Of a stretch of DNA of 64,000 nt, positions 28,363-53,498 are shown piece after piece (the stretch's first letter is position 1; each line of letters starts with the position of its first letter). This stretch comes from a virus (taxonomy: Duplodnaviria > Caudoviricetes), in the IMG/VR virus record IMGVR_UViG_3300035498_000877, positions 1 to 64,000 of that record; one strand, 5' to 3'. The position numbers and the translations under genes were made by a program. The notes beneath the pieces are model-generated. The model was not told the origin of the DNA and ran no database searches. It was given only the letters and a program-made list of their open reading frames with translations.

Positions 28363-29640
28363 TTAATATACAAATTTGTGGAATATCCACTCAAGAATTT
28401 TATCGATAGTTTTTAATTCACCCATTTTATCTTGTAACATTAATTTAGGTAATTGATTATTATAATCTCTAATATCTTCTATATTCTCATCATATATATC
28501 TTGTACTCTCTGATGAATTTCTTCTTTCTTGGAAATAAAATCTTCTCTATCTTTTACGGTAGTTACATAGAATGCTCTAGGCATTACTGTAATATCATCT
28601 GGTCTAACTCTAGAGTAGTCAGTATGTAAATTCTTTGGATTAGATGCAGCCATTATATATGCAACGAATGAAGAACACACAAATCTTTTATCTACTTTAG
28701 ATGGAGTAGCAATAAATGCTGTTAATAAATTAGACATTGCATACTGAGTCTTATCTTTATTCATTAATGTATCCTGAACATAATCCATCATTCTTTGTTT
28801 CTCTTCCTTAGTAACAAACATAACACAAATGTACACAGAATCTGTTCCTAAGAAAGATTCATCAGTCATCATATTATCAACAACAAATCCAATATTATCA
28901 TATGAATACATCTTAGTCATTGATTCATCGAATGATACTAATGAATGTGAATATAAATCACCATTAGTAAGTTTGGTAATCATTCCTTTGAACATCATTG
29001 ATGATATTTCAGCATGTGATTTAGGATCACCATTATTACGTAATTTAGAAGTTGAATAAGATTTCGATATTCCAAATACTGGAACAAATTCAGCATCTTC
29101 TTTATCATCTGAAGTTACAAATCCAATCTTGTCCTCATCATTATCAAACTTCCAGCTATCTTCCTCAGTTAAAGGAACATCATCACGTAAATCAATATCA
29201 GCTGATTCTAATAAGAAATTATAGATATCATTAAAATTAGATTCTATCTTATAATCAGATGATTCTTTAAATATTTTTTCAAATTGATCTTCAATTCCCA
29301 ATTCTTTGATATGTCTTTTTAAATGTGATTTAATATCATCTGATAAAACTCCTTGCTGACATGCTCTACTATATGCAGCTTTTATCCCTGGAATAGATAC
29401 TACTAATTTTCCATCTTTCAAAACATGATGGGGATATTTACATTTTGAATTGCTGTATGGAGTTTTAGTTCTTGGATTATTAGTAATATTTTTTACAGGA
29501 GCAATTAAATATGCTTCCTTTAAACAATCTTCCCAATTAGATTCTTTTAATAATTTATCATAGAAATCAGCTCCTGGTTTTTCCCACTTGCCATCAGTAA
29601 TAGCTGATTTCTTTGAATTGTCAATTTTTAATTCACTCAT
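28363..29640 (-). CDS. Putative virion protein with permuted papain-like (YiiX/NlpC-P60-type) domain
   Basis: YSHS His precedes FVCSSFVA Cys (permuted order); N-terminal KYPHH..GKLVVSIPGIKAA domain; FKES/LLES/LTEE linker. Confidence 0.65.
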   Translation of the reverse strand: MSELKIDNSKKSAITDGKWEKPGADFYDKLLKESNWEDCLKEAYLIAPVKNITNNPRTKTPYSNSKCKYPHHVLKDGKLVVSIPGIKAAYSRACQQGVLSDDIKSHLKRHIKELGIEDQFEKIFKESSDYKIESNFNDIYNFLLESADIDLRDDVPLTEEDSWKFDNDEDKIGFVTSDDKEDAEFVPVFGISKSYSTSKLRNNGDPKSHAEISSMMFKGMITKLTNGDLYSHSLVSFDESMTKMYSYDNIGFVVDNMMTDESFLGTDSVYICVMFVTKEEKQRMMDYVQDTLMNKDKTQYAMSNLLTAFIATPSKVDKRFVCSSFVAYIMAASNPKNLHTDYSRVRPDDITVMPRAFYVTTVKDREDFISKKEEIHQRVQDIYDENIEDIRDYNNQLPKLMLQDKMGELKTIDKILEWIFHKFVY

Positions 29641-29754
29641 TTTTAGATCTCCTTTCTATATATAATGTATAAAAATAAGTTTAATACAATTATTAAGCGG
29701 TGAATTTATTAATATTTTTAAAGTTATGGATATATACTATATATTAATCCTTAA

Positions 29755-30660
29755 TAATTCGAATGACAGCTTCTTTTTATTTCGGATGGTGTAACTAATC
29801 TTTCTTATTTGCGTAATGGGTTGTAATAATTTGATTTTTACAATTCATGGTAAAAACTTCTTTCACAATTGTGCTACATGGGGACTGGCTGCCATAGGGA
29901 GGGCAGTCGGTCTTTGTGTACTCAAAAATAAAAATATTAAAAAATATTTAAGTATATACATATATAATAAATTTTTGCTAGATGGAATTTTTTGATAATC
30001 AAATAAATAGGTTTGTTGGTCCTCTATTTTGATATTCAAATAAAATTTCATATATAATTGATGTTTGAAACCAAGTCATCAAATTCATCAATCACACAGA
30101 CAAGATAATGTGAGTACATGGTAACTATTCAAGTGTCAATATCAGTCACAATCGGATGGTACAGATATTTGTCATTACTGAATACCGACAAACTACCAGC
30201 TCCAACATCAAATATTAATTTATTTTGTCAAGGATTCATATGGATAGTTCTAATTCTGTCAGAGGTTTTAGAATGATAAATTTTATAATAATTTCATCTA
30301 GCGAAAATTTGTATACATCATTTTCAATGATGATCTCATTTATATTAATTTTTTTCAATTGTAGCGGGTCTATTTCAAGAGATCGCTCATAGACGTTAAA
30401 CTTTAAAGCTACTCATATATGGTAAATATCCGGGGAATGTCAATGGTAATTTTGTGGAATAATCAAATGAATAGGGAAGGTCACCCCTTTAAACATTATC
30501 GGACGAAGTGTTATGGTTATTATTTCCCCGGACTTGCCATGTAATATAAACAAACTATGACAATTTCATTATTCGTAATTCATATACTTATCTTGTTAAA
30601 AATTGTGATGATTGGTACCGGGTTCCCCTATAACCCTGTATCGGTCATTGCAATTTTTAT
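29755..30660 (+). ncRNA. Candidate large structured non-coding RNA (about 900 nt; ends approximate)
   Basis: No credible ORF. Helices 29816-26/29838-48, 29875-93/29902-20, 29969-89/30290-310, 30416-37/30524-43, 30597-624/30632-59 contain many G-U pairs in + orientation; complementary loops AUAGGG and CCCUAU. Confidence 0.7.
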
Positions 30661-30717
30661 CGCTTTTTTAAGAACGATTTGATAAATTACATTGAAACAA
30701 TGAGGTGATTATTAAAT

Positions 30718-33249
30718 ATGAAAATTATAAAAGAACGTACTAGATTAATCTTTACCGAGTTCAATGATATGGAGAAAAAGAAGATAGAGGACTTGGTTGG
30801 TACAATGGATAAAGTCTTTGCTTATGAAGATGAAGATAATGGTATTATTGCATTTCCTCCTGGAATGGAAAAATGGGTCAGAGCAACATTTCCAAATATT
30901 CGTATAATAGATAATAGTAAATCATATTGGGATTATGCTGCTATTACTCCAGTAGAGCATAATGCCCAACCTAGAAATCAATTACAAATAGATTTCATTA
31001 AATTTGTATTAGAGCAAGCTAATAAGAAAGAAAAGGTTGCTGGTATATTGAGTCCTGGTACTGGTAAAGCTCAACCTATTAGTACAATAATGCCTACTCC
31101 ATATGGAGAGAAAGTTCTTAAATATTTAAAAAAAGGAGATATAATATTTGGGGCTGATGGTAAACCAACTACTGTTAGTGCAGTATTTGACAGAGGAGTA
31201 CTTGATGTTTATAAAGTAACATTTAGTGATGGAAGAACTGCAATATGTGCAAAAGATCATTTATGGGAAGTCAATAACCATAAAAACTATGGAATGCATC
31301 AAGTTATATCTCTTGGAGATATAATGGAAGATTATAAACGATTAGTTCCATATGGTAATGCAGCTCAATTTGAAGATTATGAATATAAATATTCAATTCC
31401 ATTTATATATGCACCAGTTCAATATGAAACAAAAGCAATTGAATATGATCCTTACTTATTAGGATTACTGGCTGGAAATATTGACAAGAATATAGAATTT
31501 TCATTTGAAGAAATTAAGATTACTTCTAGAAACAAATATATCTCTGAATATATTGGAAAAACATATGATATTGAAGTAATTAGATATCCAATTACTGGTA
31601 ATACATATTTTAGGAAGAGAAATAGATTAATAACATTTGATGATATAAATTTAGTTAATAATTGCGAATTAAATGTATCATCATTATCAAGAGGATTATT
31701 TAATCCAATATATACTAGAAATTCAGAAGAAGTTAGATTATCATTATTACAAGGATTAATGGATGCTAATGGCCATATAAAAGATGATAATGACTTATTT
31801 CCAGTATATTATAAAAGCAAGCATGGAACTCTGATTGATTGTGTTAGAAAGTTAATAATTGGATTTGGATATATTGCAAATATTGATAAGCATAATAAAT
31901 ATAAATTGATTATAGATGTTCCTAATATGTTTAAAGCAAAATTATTTAAAGAACCTAAAAAGAAAGCGATTGCATATAAAGCTTCAAGTAGGATAGATCC
32001 TGATAGAAACAGATGGACATATAATTACATAACGAAGATTGAATATGCAGGACAAGAAGAATGTAGATGTATTCAAGTAGAAGCTGCAGATCAATTATAT
32101 TTAACTACTGATTGTGTAGTAACTCACAATACATTTATGGCATGCTATTCAGCTATCAAAGTAGGATTGAGAACATTAATTATCGTACCTACCAGTGGTA
32201 TTAAACAACAATGGATAGATACTCTAACTGATATGTTTAATGTTGATCCATCTAGAGTTAAAGCAGTCAATAAACCATCTGATTTCATTAATGTTAAAGC
32301 TGACTTTGTTGTAGTGTCACAAGCATCATTGTCAGTATTAAATAAACAATACAATCTTGAGAAGATAATGAAAGATAATAAGTTTGGAATTAAAGTAATT
32401 GATGAAGTACAAATGTGGTTCCATAATATTATCAAGGTAGATGGTAATTCTAATATATGCCATAACTGGTATCTTACTGGAACATTTGGTAGATCAGGTC
32501 AAGAAGAAAATGATTTATATCAAAAGATGTTTGGAGATCTACAGATATTCAGAGAGAAGAATAAGAAATCTACTATATTCAATCCAAGACCAGGAAATAT
32601 ATATGGTATGAAACCATATATGCATGTAAAGATGATGTGGACTAAATCAGGATTATCTAAAGAAGAAATTCAATCAGTAATGGGTTCAATGAGATATTCT
32701 GAACGTGCAGAGAAATGGGTTAGATATGGTATTAGTGTACCTGCATATACTAACTTAGTAATTCCACCTGACGGTACAATGACCAAACATCTTGGTCACA
32801 TATTAAAGACAATTAAAATGGCTGATAAAGAAGTAACATATGGAAGAATGTTAGTACTTGATTCTACAATAGCAGCTACAGAAATAATTGCAGATAAATT
32901 GAAGAAAATGTTTCCAAATAAAAAGATATATACATATCATTCTAAACATACCAAAGAAGAGAATGATATAGCTAAAGCAGAAGCTGATATATTAGTGTCA
33001 ACTGTTAAGTCAGCAGGTACTGGTTTTGATATGAAAGATCTATCTAAACTAGTAGTATCAGCTCCATTTTGCAGCTGGATTTTATCTGACCAGATAAGTG
33101 GTAGGTTACGAAGAAGACCTGATGACAAAGACGTATATATGTGGGATATTGTTGATGCTGAGATCAAACAACTACGTTCATGGGCTAATACTCGAGCTGA
33201 CTGCTATAAGAGAAAATGTAAAACATTCAAAGTTGTTGATATGGATTAA
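30718..33249 (+). CDS. SF2 (UvsW-like) DNA helicase containing an intein
   Basis: SPGTGK|T Walker A split by the intein; IDEVQ, LTGT, GTGFD, QISGRLRR motifs; extein about 489 aa. Confidence 0.88.
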   Translation: MKIIKERTRLIFTEFNDMEKKKIEDLVGTMDKVFAYEDEDNGIIAFPPGMEKWVRATFPNIRIIDNSKSYWDYAAITPVEHNAQPRNQLQIDFIKFVLEQANKKEKVAGILSPGTGKAQPISTIMPTPYGEKVLKYLKKGDIIFGADGKPTTVSAVFDRGVLDVYKVTFSDGRTAICAKDHLWEVNNHKNYGMHQVISLGDIMEDYKRLVPYGNAAQFEDYEYKYSIPFIYAPVQYETKAIEYDPYLLGLLAGNIDKNIEFSFEEIKITSRNKYISEYIGKTYDIEVIRYPITGNTYFRKRNRLITFDDINLVNNCELNVSSLSRGLFNPIYTRNSEEVRLSLLQGLMDANGHIKDDNDLFPVYYKSKHGTLIDCVRKLIIGFGYIANIDKHNKYKLIIDVPNMFKAKLFKEPKKKAIAYKASSRIDPDRNRWTYNYITKIEYAGQEECRCIQVEAADQLYLTTDCVVTHNTFMACYSAIKVGLRTLIIVPTSGIKQQWIDTLTDMFNVDPSRVKAVNKPSDFINVKADFVVVSQASLSVLNKQYNLEKIMKDNKFGIKVIDEVQMWFHNIIKVDGNSNICHNWYLTGTFGRSGQEENDLYQKMFGDLQIFREKNKKSTIFNPRPGNIYGMKPYMHVKMMWTKSGLSKEEIQSVMGSMRYSERAEKWVRYGISVPAYTNLVIPPDGTMTKHLGHILKTIKMADKEVTYGRMLVLDSTIAATEIIADKLKKMFPNKKIYTYHSKHTKEENDIAKAEADILVSTVKSAGTGFDMKDLSKLVVSAPFCSWILSDQISGRLRRRPDDKDVYMWDIVDAEIKQLRSWANTRADCYKRKCKTFKVVDMD
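31069..32130 (+). mobile_element. Class 3 intein (354 aa) with LAGLIDADG domain
   Basis: Starts AQP, ends THN|T; block B DHLW, block F CRCIQV, block G VTHN; LLQGLMDANG motif. Confidence 0.92.
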
Positions 33250-34862: not shown

Positions 34863-34904
34863 TACATTATTAAAATATATTATTAATACTGAGGAATATG
34901 CGAT
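34863..34904 (-). promoter_or_regulatory. Putative phage promoter ATCG-N20-ATATATTT-N5-ATGTA
   Basis: One of four copies with identical spacing. Confidence 0.65.
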
Positions 34905-34910
34905 TAAATA

Positions 34911-34947
34911 AAAGAAAAGAGAGGATTTTACTCCTCTCTATTCTTTT
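34911..34947 (-). terminator. Terminator hairpin
   Basis: AGAGAGGA-ttttac-TCCTCTCT with flanking A/T runs. Confidence 0.7.
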
Positions 34948-35881
34948 ATGCTTCCAGTGATTGCCTACAAGCTTCGATTACATCTTCTTCTGTCTCTGCT
35001 ACCATATAGAATCCTGATGCATGAACGAATTCCAGATTTAATCCAGAAATTTGTTGCAACTCGCTATTTCTTAATCCTCTCCATGATTCTTTGAAAGGAG
35101 TTTTGAGCCCAAAGCTCATGGGTTCTATTGGCACTGCCTGGCAACACCATTTACCATCTCGTTGCCAATATACAAACTTAGCATCCGATGGTATTAATAC
35201 TTCCTGCCATGGGCAGAACTGATCTAATTTAACAATCGTTCCATCTGAATTTTCCAAGTATTTCTTGACCAAATCATTGGCTTCTGATTTTGACCACATT
35301 TCCTTCACTTCATTATAGATGATATCTACTGCAATGTCCATAGCCCTGTTCATTCTACCTTTTATGTGTACAGGATTTTCATTCCAGCAATAATTGAAAC
35401 CAGATACTAATGTTGAAAACTGACACTGAGTACCTTCAACACCATTATCAGCAGCATCAATTGGATCAAAGATTGTTTTTGCTACATATGAAACGTATTT
35501 TTCATCGACAATCTCATCACCAATGATGGCCCATATCAGACCACAGCTTGCATATGGTATAGTTCCATCTTCGTGATATGCTTTCTGCTCATTAGGAAAA
35601 TGATGATCAAGGAAAGATAGATCAACATCAATATGCAGTACCTGAGGTTCTGTCTCTAGATTTCTAGCTCTTGTAAAAGTAATAGGACTAATGTTTTCTA
35701 GTCCGCTATTATTGAGGATCTTTCTATAGACCTCTAATAAGGCCAATGCAAAAACTTCATCAGCATGGAACACTGGTCCATCGTGTACAACAACTTTACC
35801 AAATTTCATACCTTCAATAATTTTCTGTTTTGCAGATTCTTTTGTTAAACCAAAACCTTCTAAAAACTTTTCTAATGTCAT
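34946..35881 (-). CDS. MYG1-family exonuclease/hydrolase
   Basis: HDGPVFHADEVFA, DHH, YASCGLIW, DAADNG, FVHASGF motifs. Confidence 0.88.
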   Translation of the reverse strand: MTLEKFLEGFGLTKESAKQKIIEGMKFGKVVVHDGPVFHADEVFALALLEVYRKILNNSGLENISPITFTRARNLETEPQVLHIDVDLSFLDHHFPNEQKAYHEDGTIPYASCGLIWAIIGDEIVDEKYVSYVAKTIFDPIDAADNGVEGTQCQFSTLVSGFNYCWNENPVHIKGRMNRAMDIAVDIIYNEVKEMWSKSEANDLVKKYLENSDGTIVKLDQFCPWQEVLIPSDAKFVYWQRDGKWCCQAVPIEPMSFGLKTPFKESWRGLRNSELQQISGLNLEFVHASGFYMVAETEEDVIEACRQSLEA

Positions 35882-53000: not shown

Positions 53001-53436
53001 AGTTGGTAAATTGTTTGATGGAAAGTATAATGAAATGATAAAACATTATACTGATTTATGGTACAATGAACAAATCGACTGGCAAGATATGAGAACTACT
53101 GAAGGACAGTTAAAATACATTAGAGAAAAATTTGGTGTTAAGAAATTGAAAAAGATTCCTAAGGATATAGTTGCATATATTCAAATTGAAACTGAAGCAA
53201 TTGAAACATCAAATGATAAAATGATGATTGCTTCTTATTGTTTATCTAAATTGGAGATTGTTGAATGGTATATCGAATTGATAGATACAGATAATAAGAA
53301 GTATATAGTTCCACATACACGTGCATATCTTGTTGATGTTAGAACTCAATTACTGAAATGCTACAAAGAAATTATGGATACTAAGATTGATAAGAATGCT
53401 GGTAAAATAAAAGTAAGTGATGAGTATTATATTTAA
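50089..53436 (+). CDS. Large putative head polyprotein with 2 SHG modules
   Basis: FNE-KSHGKLKFDYR and FDE-KSHGKLKYSFR modules homologous to those in 24541..27738; flanked by ISES and IWES/FEES sites. Confidence 0.6.
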   Translation: MAKSKGLVKDVFMTDLPEDIQYIITDVNKMISNIIDNTLNNKKAYDDLKSSSWAMSCLKDFKTAPSAKGDVGSARIYKRGNKYDTMIQVTGHFRNHQYGWIEELLHDFVRDVHQSVKTEVRKRHKLTIKDEGTGGDSNEGFDLYLSNKQSKELWDKFEDRKAKFISESFDLIDSDDEDDDITNFNEKSHGKLKFDYRKGYDVDTGHKIMIVYSLDNINITFPGHAHGLDYSDVKDKLDDPEIQKLNREAEQNIAKKGNLDHQSYGQKILAIKDLVTNKTLKSCRYVGLFDPDHKHPEAMKLTDEQIKYAQSHFHIFSIKVGDVETEDQKNFKSSKAYKMNIVGNDNLNEPKITIGEKHLKSGRGAKLDDIDPTKKPITYNHPSAKDLKKNPDHYTKEDVDLILDAINSQAFNNEEFDEKSHGKLKYSFRMSVNYKNGHFIKIVFDLKPEDISQVGTFDDQDYKNFNSFLKDKEIIKNINKNGSTNFSGTGTVMGIVDMDTHENLKTVSTIGILGGSQTTFEKYLPKSKYYDRSKNNFGEYLRADREKIAAELNLNPPDAITYTVGEKCKVPVYRSTLASNTINAVFNNEHSPYGKGVKGGSYPKSSVIKSNNWHGRNSDISVNTAIKQLEKEFDNVKAIATKYPDLQGDVDKVEKDFDYVKKEISKNVDEKYGQSISNPTYKYYHYYLKNDIDNLKLSINHKKGIWESIDINLYEKDNIDFEESADNSPAVHNQGKRMLAALSKEYIGENAKKINQYGANTFANIITKNLLPSWGGAFRKLSIQIDTKSNGIVEFKIPTMSIDFISRYINGREPLEAFLHRVPEIKIRMSADVFNTMKDPNDAYNFFLAAVKYYDIKVNKYANKLMAEAMRMDTAMKHLISTTKLSGLVSYSLQLLFIFDKVDMSNNKTFEIDKSDIDTVNKFFRNIYTSYADPEKEKNKVLKDLKDMVSSLTESCEWDDNIKTISYLPEEVGKLFDGKYNEMIKHYTDLWYNEQIDWQDMRTTEGQLKYIREKFGVKKLKKIPKDIVAYIQIETEAIETSNDKMMIASYCLSKLEIVEWYIELIDTDNKKYIVPHTRAYLVDVRTQLLKCYKEIMDTKIDKNAGKIKVSDEYYI

Positions 53437-53440
53437 TATT

Positions 53441-53469
53441 AGAAAGGGAGATAAAATATCTCCCTTTCT
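53441..53469 (+). terminator. Terminator hairpin
   Basis: AGAAAGGGAGATA-aaa-TATCTCCCTTTCT. Confidence 0.7.
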
Positions 53470-53498
53470 TATATAATGAAACTAAAGGAGGTATTACA

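What the first reader, a model, noticed from the sequence alone, without database searches (positions are those of the whole stretch)
29755..30660. Candidate novel about 900-nt structured ncRNA with complementary terminal loops
Seen: the largest gene-free gap in the window (about 1.08 kb, between divergent genes) can be paired by hand into many long helices. These include a 19-bp hairpin 29875-29920 (6 G-U), a 21-bp long-range helix 29969-89/30290-310 (2 G-U) enclosing about 300 nt of sub-hairpins, a multibranch domain closed by 30416-37/30524-43, and a 27-bp hairpin 30597-30659 (5 G-U, one mismatch). Nearly every non-Watson-Crick position is G-U on the + strand (A-C on the - strand), which points to selection on an RNA rather than on DNA palindromes. 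The loop of the 19-bp hairpin (AUAGGGAG, 29894-901) is complementary over 6 nt to the loop of the last hairpin (CCCCUAU, 30625-31), about 730 nt away. An ATATATTA promoter-like motif lies at 29739-46. Known: some phages carry large ornate RNAs (GOLLD, ROOL), and phi29 pRNA oligomerises through loop-loop pairing. Inference: a large phage RNA that closes on itself or multimerises through kissing loops. I could not match it by eye to tmRNA, RNase P or an intron core.
Basis: partly seen in the sequence, partly recalled or inferred. Interest (0 to 1): 0.9.

Follow-up and report, generated by a model that had tools for sequence, protein, structure and literature searches.

The report
Hairpin-rich non-coding RNA region before helicase
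A 1.08-kb gene-free stretch in an uncultured 289-kb phage carries several unusually long hairpins that form only in RNA copied from the plus strand. It looks like an enlarged, lineage-specific version of a short hairpin-ended non-coding unit that related phages keep in front of their helicase gene, not a new giant folded RNA with kissing loops.

Summary
The gap 29641-30717 has no ORF, no coding signal and no recoded frame. It contains uninterrupted plus-strand helices of 23, 22 and 19 bp, while the minus strand reaches only 13 bp. Dinucleotide shuffles never give more than one helix above 16 bp. RNA folding gives z -5.6 on the plus strand and -1.1 on the minus strand. Rfam finds nothing.

The reading as one ornate 900-nt RNA closed by kissing loops is not supported.
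- The 27-bp hairpin (30597-30659) is the local copy of a hairpin that nine related phages carry 48-83 nt upstream of the helicase start. Stems and loops differ in all of them, and wobble mismatches are 22 G-U on plus against 3 on minus.
- In the only diverged variant (88% identity, 5' 420 nt only), the 19-bp hairpin stem is kept, with two changes that both create G-U. Its AUAGGGAG loop becomes AUAUUA.
- Smaller predicted helices are not conserved. The middle of the gap folds no better than shuffled sequence.
- Relatives have gaps of only 70-340 nt at this site, and no homologue exists beyond strain level.

Best reading: one or more plus-strand non-coding transcripts ending in terminator-like hairpins, expanded in this lineage, probably tied to helicase-operon expression. 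Function unproven. Moderate-to-low interest.

The parts
29641..30717 (.). ORF-free gap between divergent genes, 1077 nt
   Evidence: ORF list. Coding potential equals shuffled background. No long ORF with TAG, TGA or TAA reassigned. No Pfam or PHROG hit in six read-through frames. The variant L018 has indels of 2, 5, 2, 2 and 5 nt.
29687..29701 (-). 15-nt motif CAATTATTAAGCGGT, the only DNA shared with the gap of relative L003; lies in the upstream region of the minus-strand 425-aa gene
   Evidence: blastn-short between the gaps.
29739..29748 (+). ATATATTAAT promoter-like element; candidate start of plus-strand transcription near 29753
   Evidence: ATATATT[AC]TA is enriched in intergenic DNA: 27 of 44 copies lie in 8.7% of the genome. 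The element is conserved in L018 while its neighbours vary. No transcript data.
29816..29848 (+). 11-bp hairpin
   Evidence: Mean pair probability 0.96. A hairpin still forms in L018, with a changed top.
29875..29920 (+). H1: 19-bp hairpin with 6 G-U pairs and loop AUAGGGAG; terminator-like orphan hairpin
   Evidence: In L018, 36 of 38 stem positions are unchanged. The two changes (A-U to G-U, C-G to U-G) are tolerated only on the plus strand. The loop and flanks are rewritten. It is the third-longest plus-strand hairpin of the genome.
29967..29989 (+). 5' arm of the 23-bp long-range helix
   Evidence: P 0.96. Longest uninterrupted helix in the region. L018 has one change (G to A at 29981) and a 5-nt deletion at the inner end; its partner arm was not seen.
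30029..30058 (+). Sigma-70-like promoter match TTGATA-18-TATAAT (11 of 12), inside the long-range helix
   Evidence: Consensus scan. Kept in L018 as TTGATA-17-TACAAT. A consensus match only.
30058..30082 (+). 10-bp hairpin
   Evidence: Three of four L018 changes keep pairing through plus-strand wobble.
30290..30312 (+). 3' arm of the 23-bp long-range helix
30416..30543 (+). 128-nt unbranched long hairpin with about 37 bp and internal loops
   Evidence: P 0.84-0.95. Local z -2.4 on plus against -0.3 on minus. No comparative data.
30597..30659 (+). 27-bp hairpin with loop CCCCUAU; local version of the clade-wide hairpin upstream of the helicase; probable terminator or insulator of the upstream unit
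   Evidence: Longest plus-strand hairpin of the genome. Nine relatives carry a 16-23-bp hairpin 48-83 nt before the helicase ATG, each with different sequence and loop. Wobble mismatches are 22 on plus against 3 on minus. The layout matches the terminator-plus-promoter cassettes of this phage.
30660..30672 (+). T-rich tail; the ATCGC word spans 30659-30663 and starts on the last hairpin base
   Evidence: 7 T in the 12 nt after the stem.
30673..30685 (+). AACGATTTGATAA box, conserved between hairpin and ribosome-binding site in most relatives
30702..30720 (+). Helicase ribosome-binding site GAGGTGA and ATG
   Evidence: The N-terminus aligns from residue 1 with homologues.

Best explanation
The gap is a plus-strand, non-coding transcription region, not a single ornate RNA.

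**Clade-wide unit.** Phages of this clade keep a short non-coding unit between the divergent gene and the helicase. It consists of a plus-strand promoter, 100-250 nt of RNA, and a long G-U-containing hairpin about 50-80 nt before the helicase start. A conserved AACGATTTGATAA-type box and the helicase ribosome-binding site follow.

**Expansion in this lineage.** Here the unit has grown to about 0.9 kb by gaining extra long-helix modules: H1, the 23-bp long-range helix and the 128-nt hairpin.

**Likely transcripts.** By analogy with the rest of the genome, where hairpins of 17-24 bp sit at gene ends, I infer at least two hairpin-ended RNAs:
- about 170 nt, from the ATATATTA element (29739) to H1;
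- a longer RNA ending at the 27-bp hairpin.

**Inferred function.** The last hairpin stops or attenuates upstream transcription before the helicase promoter and ribosome-binding site. The perfect 19-27-bp helices give stability or serve as double-strand-specific (RNase III-type) processing sites. The RNA thereby modulates expression of the helicase (replication) operon.

**Shown:** absence of coding, plus-strand specificity of the helices, conservation of the H1 stem, and the clade-wide hairpin.
**Inferred:** promoters, transcript ends and function.
For: - **Non-coding:**, and the non-3n indels in L018.
- **Plus-strand RNA helices:** z -5.63 against -1.11. Helices of 23/22/19 bp on plus against at most 13 bp on minus, beyond 150 shuffles.
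- **H1 stem conserved:** 36 of 38 positions unchanged, with two plus-strand-only wobble changes, between a rewritten loop and rewritten flanks.
- **Clade-wide hairpin:** present before the helicase in nine relatives, all with different sequences; 22 G-U on plus against 3 on minus.
- **Genome habit:** long hairpins elsewhere lie 0-30 nt after stop codons.
- **Cassette layout:** hairpin, T-run and ATCG word as in this phage's promoter cassettes.
- **Promoter-like element:** the 29739 element belongs to an intergenic-enriched motif and is conserved in L018.
- **Lineage-specific expansion:** relatives have 70-340-nt gaps at the same site with conserved flanking genes.
Against: - There are no transcript data, so promoters, ends and the number of RNAs are inferences.
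- H1 lacks a U-tail. Many gene-end hairpins here lack one too.
- The 23-bp long-range helix and the 128-nt hairpin are not explained by a terminator role, and no variant covers them.
- Predicted small helices are not conserved. The gap diverges faster (12% plus indels) than fourfold sites of the adjacent gene (7 of 125). That pattern fits weak constraint or recombination.
- With DNA energy parameters both strands fold about equally well.
- The sigma-70-like promoter at 30029-58 lies inside the long-range helix. If it is used, that helix could not form in its transcript.
Confidence: 0.5

Rival explanations
1. One reading: one large (~900 nt) structured phage RNA of a new class. It circularises or multimerises through kissing between the H1 loop (AUAGGGAG) and the last hairpin loop (CCCCUAU), in the manner of GOLLD or ROOL nanocages or phi29 pRNA rings.
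For: - All long helices lie on one strand within one promoter-to-terminator span.
- The loops have 6-nt Watson-Crick complementarity.
- A second AUAGGGAAGG copy at 30471 could pair with the same loop.
- No known family matches.
Against: - The H1 loop is AUAUUA in the only variant.
- The last hairpin's counterparts in nine relatives all have different loops, and those relatives lack the rest of the element.
- There is no excess structure in 29900-30400 and no conservation of the smaller helices.
- The architecture is a string of plain hairpins with no multi-stem junctions or pseudoknot evidence.
- No homologues exist beyond strain level, so there is no covariation.
- By my estimate, a 6-nt match between some pair among about 12 loops has roughly a 1-in-10 chance.
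Confidence: 0.1
2. Decayed small-gene cassettes. Small plus-strand genes, each with its own promoter and long-stem terminator, once sat upstream of the helicase. Their ORFs have eroded, leaving orphan promoters and terminators and no present function.
For: - The site is variable, and some relatives carry small plus-strand ORFs there that run into or end at the hairpin: 63 aa in L019-L022 and 77 aa in L025.
- Hairpins of this kind end genes elsewhere in the genome.
- Divergence is fast and indels are not multiples of three.
- The region is lineage-specific.
Against: - No residual coding signal.
- No similarity to any ORF of eleven related loci or to Pfam or PHROGs.
- The H1 stem is kept intact while its surroundings change.
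- A 23-bp long-range helix and a 128-nt hairpin are not expected from eroded genes.
- The gap is identical in four independent assemblies.
Confidence: 0.2
3. DNA-level element: a replication origin or single-strand initiation region next to the replication helicase, with strand-specific hairpins in single-stranded DNA and repeated binding sites.
For: - It lies at a divergent junction directly upstream of a helicase in a replication module; relatives have DnaB within 5 kb.
- With DNA parameters both strands fold better than shuffles, z about -4.2.
- A TTGATAATCAA-type word occurs three times: near 29993, 30030 and 30457.
That note is untested here.
Against: - Six G-T pairs in 19 would make H1 a poor DNA hairpin.
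- The asymmetry appears only when G-U pairing counts (against 66, 67).
- Variant changes add further wobble pairs.
- Complete relatives lack the region, which is odd for an essential origin.
- Cumulative GC skew shows no turning point here.
- The region is not more AT-rich than the genome.
Confidence: 0.1
4. The whole gap is a long 5' leader of the helicase mRNA. Transcription starts near 29753, reads through the hairpins, and the structures control helicase translation or mRNA stability.
For: - In most relatives a CCUCC word lies 20-50 nt upstream of the hairpin. In L003 and L028 it pairs with the helicase ribosome-binding site in the MFE fold, which puts the hairpin inside a leader there.
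- U-tails after the hairpins are weak in several relatives.
Against: - In this phage no CCUCC lies near the hairpin, and the ribosome-binding site pairs only locally.
- The hairpin is followed by TTTTT-ATCGC-TTTTTT and a partial copy of the phage's promoter cassette.
- A 27-bp stem with a T-run would be a strong block to read-through.
Confidence: 0.1

Closest known systems
Terminator-promoter cassettes and gene-end hairpins of phage transcription units (this phage's own cassettes at 34863-34949, 35958, 38745, 39376; more generally the intergenic hairpins mapped in jumbo phages by ONT-cappable-seq, e.g. PMC11512511)
   Same: A long stem followed by a T-rich tract and then a promoter word (ATCG...). 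The stem length falls on the genome's own distribution of 15-24-bp gene-end hairpins. G-U pairs lie on the sense strand.
   Different: H1 and the 27-bp hairpin end no gene. The 27-bp stem is the longest plus-strand hairpin in the genome. The unit between promoter and hairpin is about 0.9 kb without an ORF.
RNase III processing helices: the T7 early-region sites, and the long-range stems flanking 16S and 23S rRNA (my own knowledge)
   Same: Uninterrupted 19-27-bp double-stranded RNA segments. One long-range helix (29967-89/30290-312) encloses about 300 nt, as rRNA processing stalks do.
   Different: No cleavage data and no flanking cistrons to separate. The host and its RNase III are unknown. 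Only helix length was tested here.
GOLLD (RF01998) and ROOL (RF03087) large ornate RNAs of phages and prophages, which form RNA-only cages (PMC12286853)
   Same: Large, ORF-free, phage-borne, and from a gut- or rumen-type phage clade.
   Different: No covariance-model match even at E up to 10. No tRNA genes in the genome. No multi-stem junctions. No conservation across species.
phi29 pRNA
   Different: No Rfam match. The loop is not conserved. This is a jumbo phage with a different genome organisation, and there is no link to a packaging motor.

Membership tests
GOLLD / ROOL / OLE (Rfam large ornate RNAs) | Match to the family covariance model (conserved multi-stem core) | tested here: not met
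   cmscan of the window at gathering threshold gave 0 hits. The gap at E up to 10 gave only five unrelated matches with E of 1.1 or more.
GOLLD / ROOL | Frequent association with tRNA genes in phages or prophages | tested here: not met
   ARAGORN found no tRNA in the window or in the whole 289-kb genome.
GOLLD / ROOL / OLE | Structure conserved with covariation across many species | tested here: not met
   No homologue in GenBank phages, in seven related phage records, three of them complete, or in 15 related loci by nhmmer. The only copies are identical ones and one strain-level variant.
Group I intron | Match to Intron_gpI and location inside a gene | tested here: not met
   No hit in the gap. 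The same model does find an intron elsewhere in this genome. Both flanking genes are complete from residue 1.
phi29-type pRNA, tmRNA, RNase P, 6S RNA | Match to the Rfam model | tested here: not met
Intrinsic (hairpin plus U-tract) terminator, for 30597-30676 | Stable stem directly followed by a U-rich tract on the transcribed strand | tested here: inconclusive
   A 27-bp stem is followed by TCGCTTTTTT, with 7 T in 12 nt, and the context matches other terminator-promoter cassettes. The consensus scanner did not list it, and termination was not measured.
RNase III substrate | About two turns (20 bp or more) of uninterrupted double-stranded RNA | tested here: met
   Helices of 23, 22 and 19 bp. 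This shows geometry only; cleavage cannot be tested with these tools.
Protein-coding gene or pseudogene | Open frame, codon bias, or similarity to proteins | tested here: not met

The most novel reading that the evidence does not exclude
The ~0.9-kb plus-strand transcript is a real, lineage-specific large phage RNA. Its long helices are processed into stable pieces. Its exposed Shine-Dalgarno-like loops (AUAGGGAGG) and C-rich loops (CCCCU) act in trans, on each other to form multimers or on ribosome-binding sites or the 16S rRNA 3' tail. That would be a new RNA-based way for a jumbo phage to control replication-gene or host translation.
Probability: 0.1. Interest if true: 0.65.

Novelty: new member of a known kind. 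Interest (0 to 1): 0.3.

Why it matters
If the region is transcribed as proposed, this clade of roughly 270-300-kb gut/rumen-type phages keeps a non-coding, hairpin-ended RNA unit in front of its replication helicase. That unit can expand from about 0.2 to 0.9 kb by gaining long-helix modules. It would be a tractable case for how phage regulatory RNAs grow, and a candidate control point for replication-gene expression.

The result also warns against reading every hairpin-dense phage gap as a GOLLD-like RNA. Strand-specific G-U helices are real here, but the comparative data point to ordinary terminator, leader or processing elements.

Tried and rejected
- **Known RNA families:** Rfam at gathering threshold and at E up to 10, plus the whole genome. 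Nothing in the gap.
- **Recoded gene:** TAG, TGA or TAA reassigned gives no long frame.
- **Pseudogene:** six read-through frames against Pfam and PHROGs, small ORFs against PHROGs, 799 ORFs of related loci by tblastn, and codon-usage score. Nothing. One 48-nt blastn match to relative G001 lies in a 120-aa gene there, but it does not extend at protein level.
- **Repeat or mobile element:** no second copy in the genome, no tandem array, and no significant internal duplication apart from one 35-nt word pair.
- **Homologue hunts, all empty:**
  - GenBank phages by blastn.
  - Two DNA-pattern scans of metagenome contigs and one of viral contigs.
  - Blastn of seven related phage records.
  - nhmmer on all fetched loci.
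  - 90% clusters of the two small ORFs called inside the gap.
  - Short N-terminal helicase fragments at contig ends.
- **Replication-origin signal:** cumulative GC skew is uninformative.
- **Whole-genome RNAfold and RNALfold scans:** timed out. I replaced them with a stem scanner.
a ~590-nt RNA upstream of a helicase in a 270-kb phage. The ~270-kb relatives seen here have gaps of only 68 and 341 nt at this locus.
- **Not built:** no covariance model was made, because only two distinct sequences exist and they cover only the 5' 420 nt.

Full report
**Context.** The window is the first 64 kb of a 289,234-bp IMG/VR phage record of about 29% G+C, estimated complete. The finding lies in the 1077-nt gap 29641-30717. 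On its left is a minus-strand gene of 425 aa (28363-29640). On its right is a plus-strand 843-aa SF2-type helicase (30718-33249; Pfam ResIII/DEAD, PHROG DNA helicase). It is the largest gap in the window and the second largest in the genome.

- RNAfold reproduces each named helix with high pair probability:
  - 29875-93/29902-20: 19 bp with 6 G-U.
  - 29967-89/30290-312: 23 bp with 3 G-U.
- 30416-30543: a 128-nt hairpin.
  - 30597-30659: 27 bp with 5 G-U and one mismatch.
- The plus strand folds to -224.1 kcal/mol (z -5.63). The minus strand folds to -170.4 kcal/mol (z -1.11).
- A simpler statistic gives the same answer. Uninterrupted WC+GU helices are 23, 22 and 19 bp on plus and at most 13 bp on minus. 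In 150 dinucleotide shuffles the longest helix averaged 14.2 bp and the second-longest never passed 16 bp.
- The 27-bp hairpin is the longest plus-strand hairpin in the whole genome, and H1 is the third.
- Three cautions apply.
  - The excess structure is concentrated in these few helices, and 150-nt windows between 29900 and 30400 score near zero.
  - Other intergenic gaps of this phage also score z -2 to -6.
  - With DNA parameters both strands score about -4.2. The asymmetry therefore rests on G-U pairing, which fits RNA.

**Is it non-coding?** Yes.
- No ORF exceeds 62 aa.
- Reassigning TAG, TGA or TAA opens no long frame.
- A codon-usage score stays at the level of shuffled sequence across the gap and jumps at both flanking genes.
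- Six read-through frames hit nothing in Pfam or PHROGs.
- 799 ORFs from eleven related loci find nothing inside the gap.
- The one diverged variant carries indels of 2, 5, 2, 2 and 5 nt, which rules out a conserved frame.

**Known RNA families.** Rfam gives no hit at gathering threshold and only noise at E of 1.1 or more in the gap. The genome has no tRNA or tmRNA. The only Rfam hit in the whole genome is a group I intron at 279921-280329, inside the other large gap.

**Relatives.**
- Four independent assemblies carry the gap with 100% identity (L013-L016).
- One variant, L018, is 88% identical over 29641 to about 30116, where its contig ends. Its flanking gene differs by only 2.8% (7 of 125 fourfold sites). 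The gap therefore evolves faster than the gene or was exchanged by recombination.
- Within the gap, conservation is patchy. The H1 stem keeps 36 of 38 positions while its loop (3 of 8 unchanged) and its flanks (25-63% identity) are rewritten.
- Both stem changes (A-U to G-U and C-G to U-G) keep pairing only on the plus strand. Three of four changes in the 30058-82 hairpin do the same.
- Taken together, however, positions paired with P above 0.5 change as often as unpaired ones: 20% against 20.7%. The smaller predicted helices carry no comparative support.
- More distant relatives (helicase 51-74% identical) keep the neighbourhood: the 448-aa homologue in L003 is 54% identical and also divergent from the helicase. 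Yet they have only 70-340 nt before the helicase.
- Nothing resembling the gap is found by blastn in seven related records, three of them complete, by nhmmer, in GenBank phages, or by pattern scans.
- The roughly 800 nt between about 29760 and 30590 are thus specific to this phage species.

**The last hairpin is not specific to the element.**
- Every relative examined with a gap of 250 nt or more has a hairpin of 16-23 bp lying 48-83 nt upstream of the helicase ATG.
- It is followed by a T-rich stretch and, in most, by a box of the form AACG(A/T)TTTGAT(T/A)AA. Here the box is at 30673-85.
- Stems and loops all differ, so the helix has been maintained through sequence turnover. Loops include ATAA, AGAGTG, GAAAT and TTAATT.
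- Its non-Watson-Crick positions are 22 G-T on the plus strand against 3 A-C.
- This is the best comparative evidence in the study. It shows a clade-wide plus-strand RNA hairpin in front of the helicase, of which 30597-30659 is the local and longest version.
- In this phage the hairpin is followed by TTTTT-ATCGC-TTTTTT. That is the same order as in the phage's repeated terminator-plus-promoter cassettes, although the downstream promoter word is only a partial match.

**What long hairpins mean in this genome.** Almost all other hairpins of 17-24 bp lie 0-30 nt after a stop codon on the sense strand, and many lack a T-tail. H1 and the 27-bp hairpin are the exceptions, because they end no gene. 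Read by the genome's own rules, they mark the ends of plus-strand transcription units that carry no ORF.
- An ATATATTAAT element at 29739 belongs to a motif strongly enriched in intergenic DNA (27 of 44 copies in 8.7% of the genome). It is conserved in L018.
- That element would give an RNA of about 170 nt ending at H1.
- A second unit would end at the 27-bp hairpin. It might start from read-through or from the sigma-70-like match at 30029-58.

**The kissing-loop idea.**
- The 6-nt complementarity is real. But the H1 loop is AUAUUA in L018, and the partner hairpin's loop differs in every relative.
- One loop is Shine-Dalgarno-like and the other C-rich. The genome's only other full AUAGGGAGGG copy outside the gap (2300) lies in a terminator stem, and a shorter AUAGGGAGG (113737) is a ribosome-binding site.
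- With about a dozen loops, I estimate roughly a 1-in-10 chance that some pair matches over 6 nt.
- Co-variation of the two loops could not be tested.

**Conclusion.**
- Best reading (0.5): a plus-strand non-coding region made of hairpin-ended RNA units. It is a lineage-specific expansion of a short unit that the clade keeps before the helicase. Its long helices act as terminators or insulators and probably as stability or double-strand processing elements, and it is linked to expression of the helicase operon.
- Rivals:
  - eroded small-gene cassettes (0.2);
  - one large self-associating RNA (0.1);
  - a DNA-level origin-type element (0.1);
  - a single long helicase leader (0.1).
- It is not a member of any described RNA family.
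- It is also not shown to be a new family, because no independent homologues exist.

Noticed in passing
window 30718-33249: The helicase probably carries an intein. Homologues come in forms of about 630 aa and about 845 aa, and the long forms carry PF14528 (LAGLIDADG_3) or Hom_end hits. An invariant His-Asn-Thr lies at residues 470-472 of the alignment. This probably also explains the 'terminase large subunit' PHROG hits to residues 103-474.
   Followed up: partly
L045:15921-16329 (genome 279921-280329, + strand): A group I intron (Rfam RF00028, 55.2 bits, E 3.7e-11) lies in the genome's largest gap, 279102-280320. The host gene was not identified.
   Followed up: no
window 30673-30685; L003, L019, L025, L030, L031 upstream of the helicase: A conserved box AACG(A/T)TTTGAT(T/A)AA lies between the hairpin and the helicase ribosome-binding site. 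In L003 and L031 it forms the perfect palindrome TCAAACGTTTGA. It is a candidate operator or promoter element of the helicase operon.
   Followed up: partly
L003, L019, L023, L028, L029, L031, 20-50 nt upstream of the pre-helicase hairpin: A plus-strand CCUCC word, which resembles the 16S rRNA 3' tail, recurs in most relatives. In the MFE folds of L003 and L028 it pairs with the helicase Shine-Dalgarno sequence. This suggests a leader that masks the ribosome-binding site. No clear counterpart lies near the hairpin in this phage.
   Followed up: partly
window 34873, 35968, 38755, 39386 (- strand); genome 138061, 179995, 191862, 194738, 232783, 249631, 253139: A promoter class with fixed 32-nt geometry, ATCG-N-AT(A/T)T ... 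(G)ATATATTC, occurs in about 11 intergenic copies, each 79-253 nt before a gene and often right after a hairpin.
   Followed up: partly
whole genome, e.g. 270290-270338, 217564-217604, 150529-150584, 53436-53474: Gene-end hairpins are unusually long (17-24 bp). Many lack a T-tail, which suggests a non-canonical termination signal in this phage.
   Followed up: partly
window 29540-29790 against L018 and L012: There is a sharp rise in divergence at the start of the 425-aa gene: 11 of its 36 differences fall in the first 100 nt. The rise continues into the adjacent gap, whereas the rest of the gene is about 98% identical. This looks like a recombination boundary or a hypervariable promoter region.
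   Followed up: partly
window 28363-29640: Homologues of the 425-aa protein occur alone or fused to transglutaminase-core, DUF553 or acetyltransferase domains, within proteins of 700 to more than 1500 aa in related phages. Its function is unknown.
   Followed up: no
window 29987-30020 and 30449-30485: A word of about 35 nt (TTTTG..ATAATCAAAT(A/G)AATAGG..GGTC) occurs twice in the gap (self-alignment z 3.95). The first copy is largely kept in L018. It contains the near-palindrome TTGATAATCAA.
   Followed up: no
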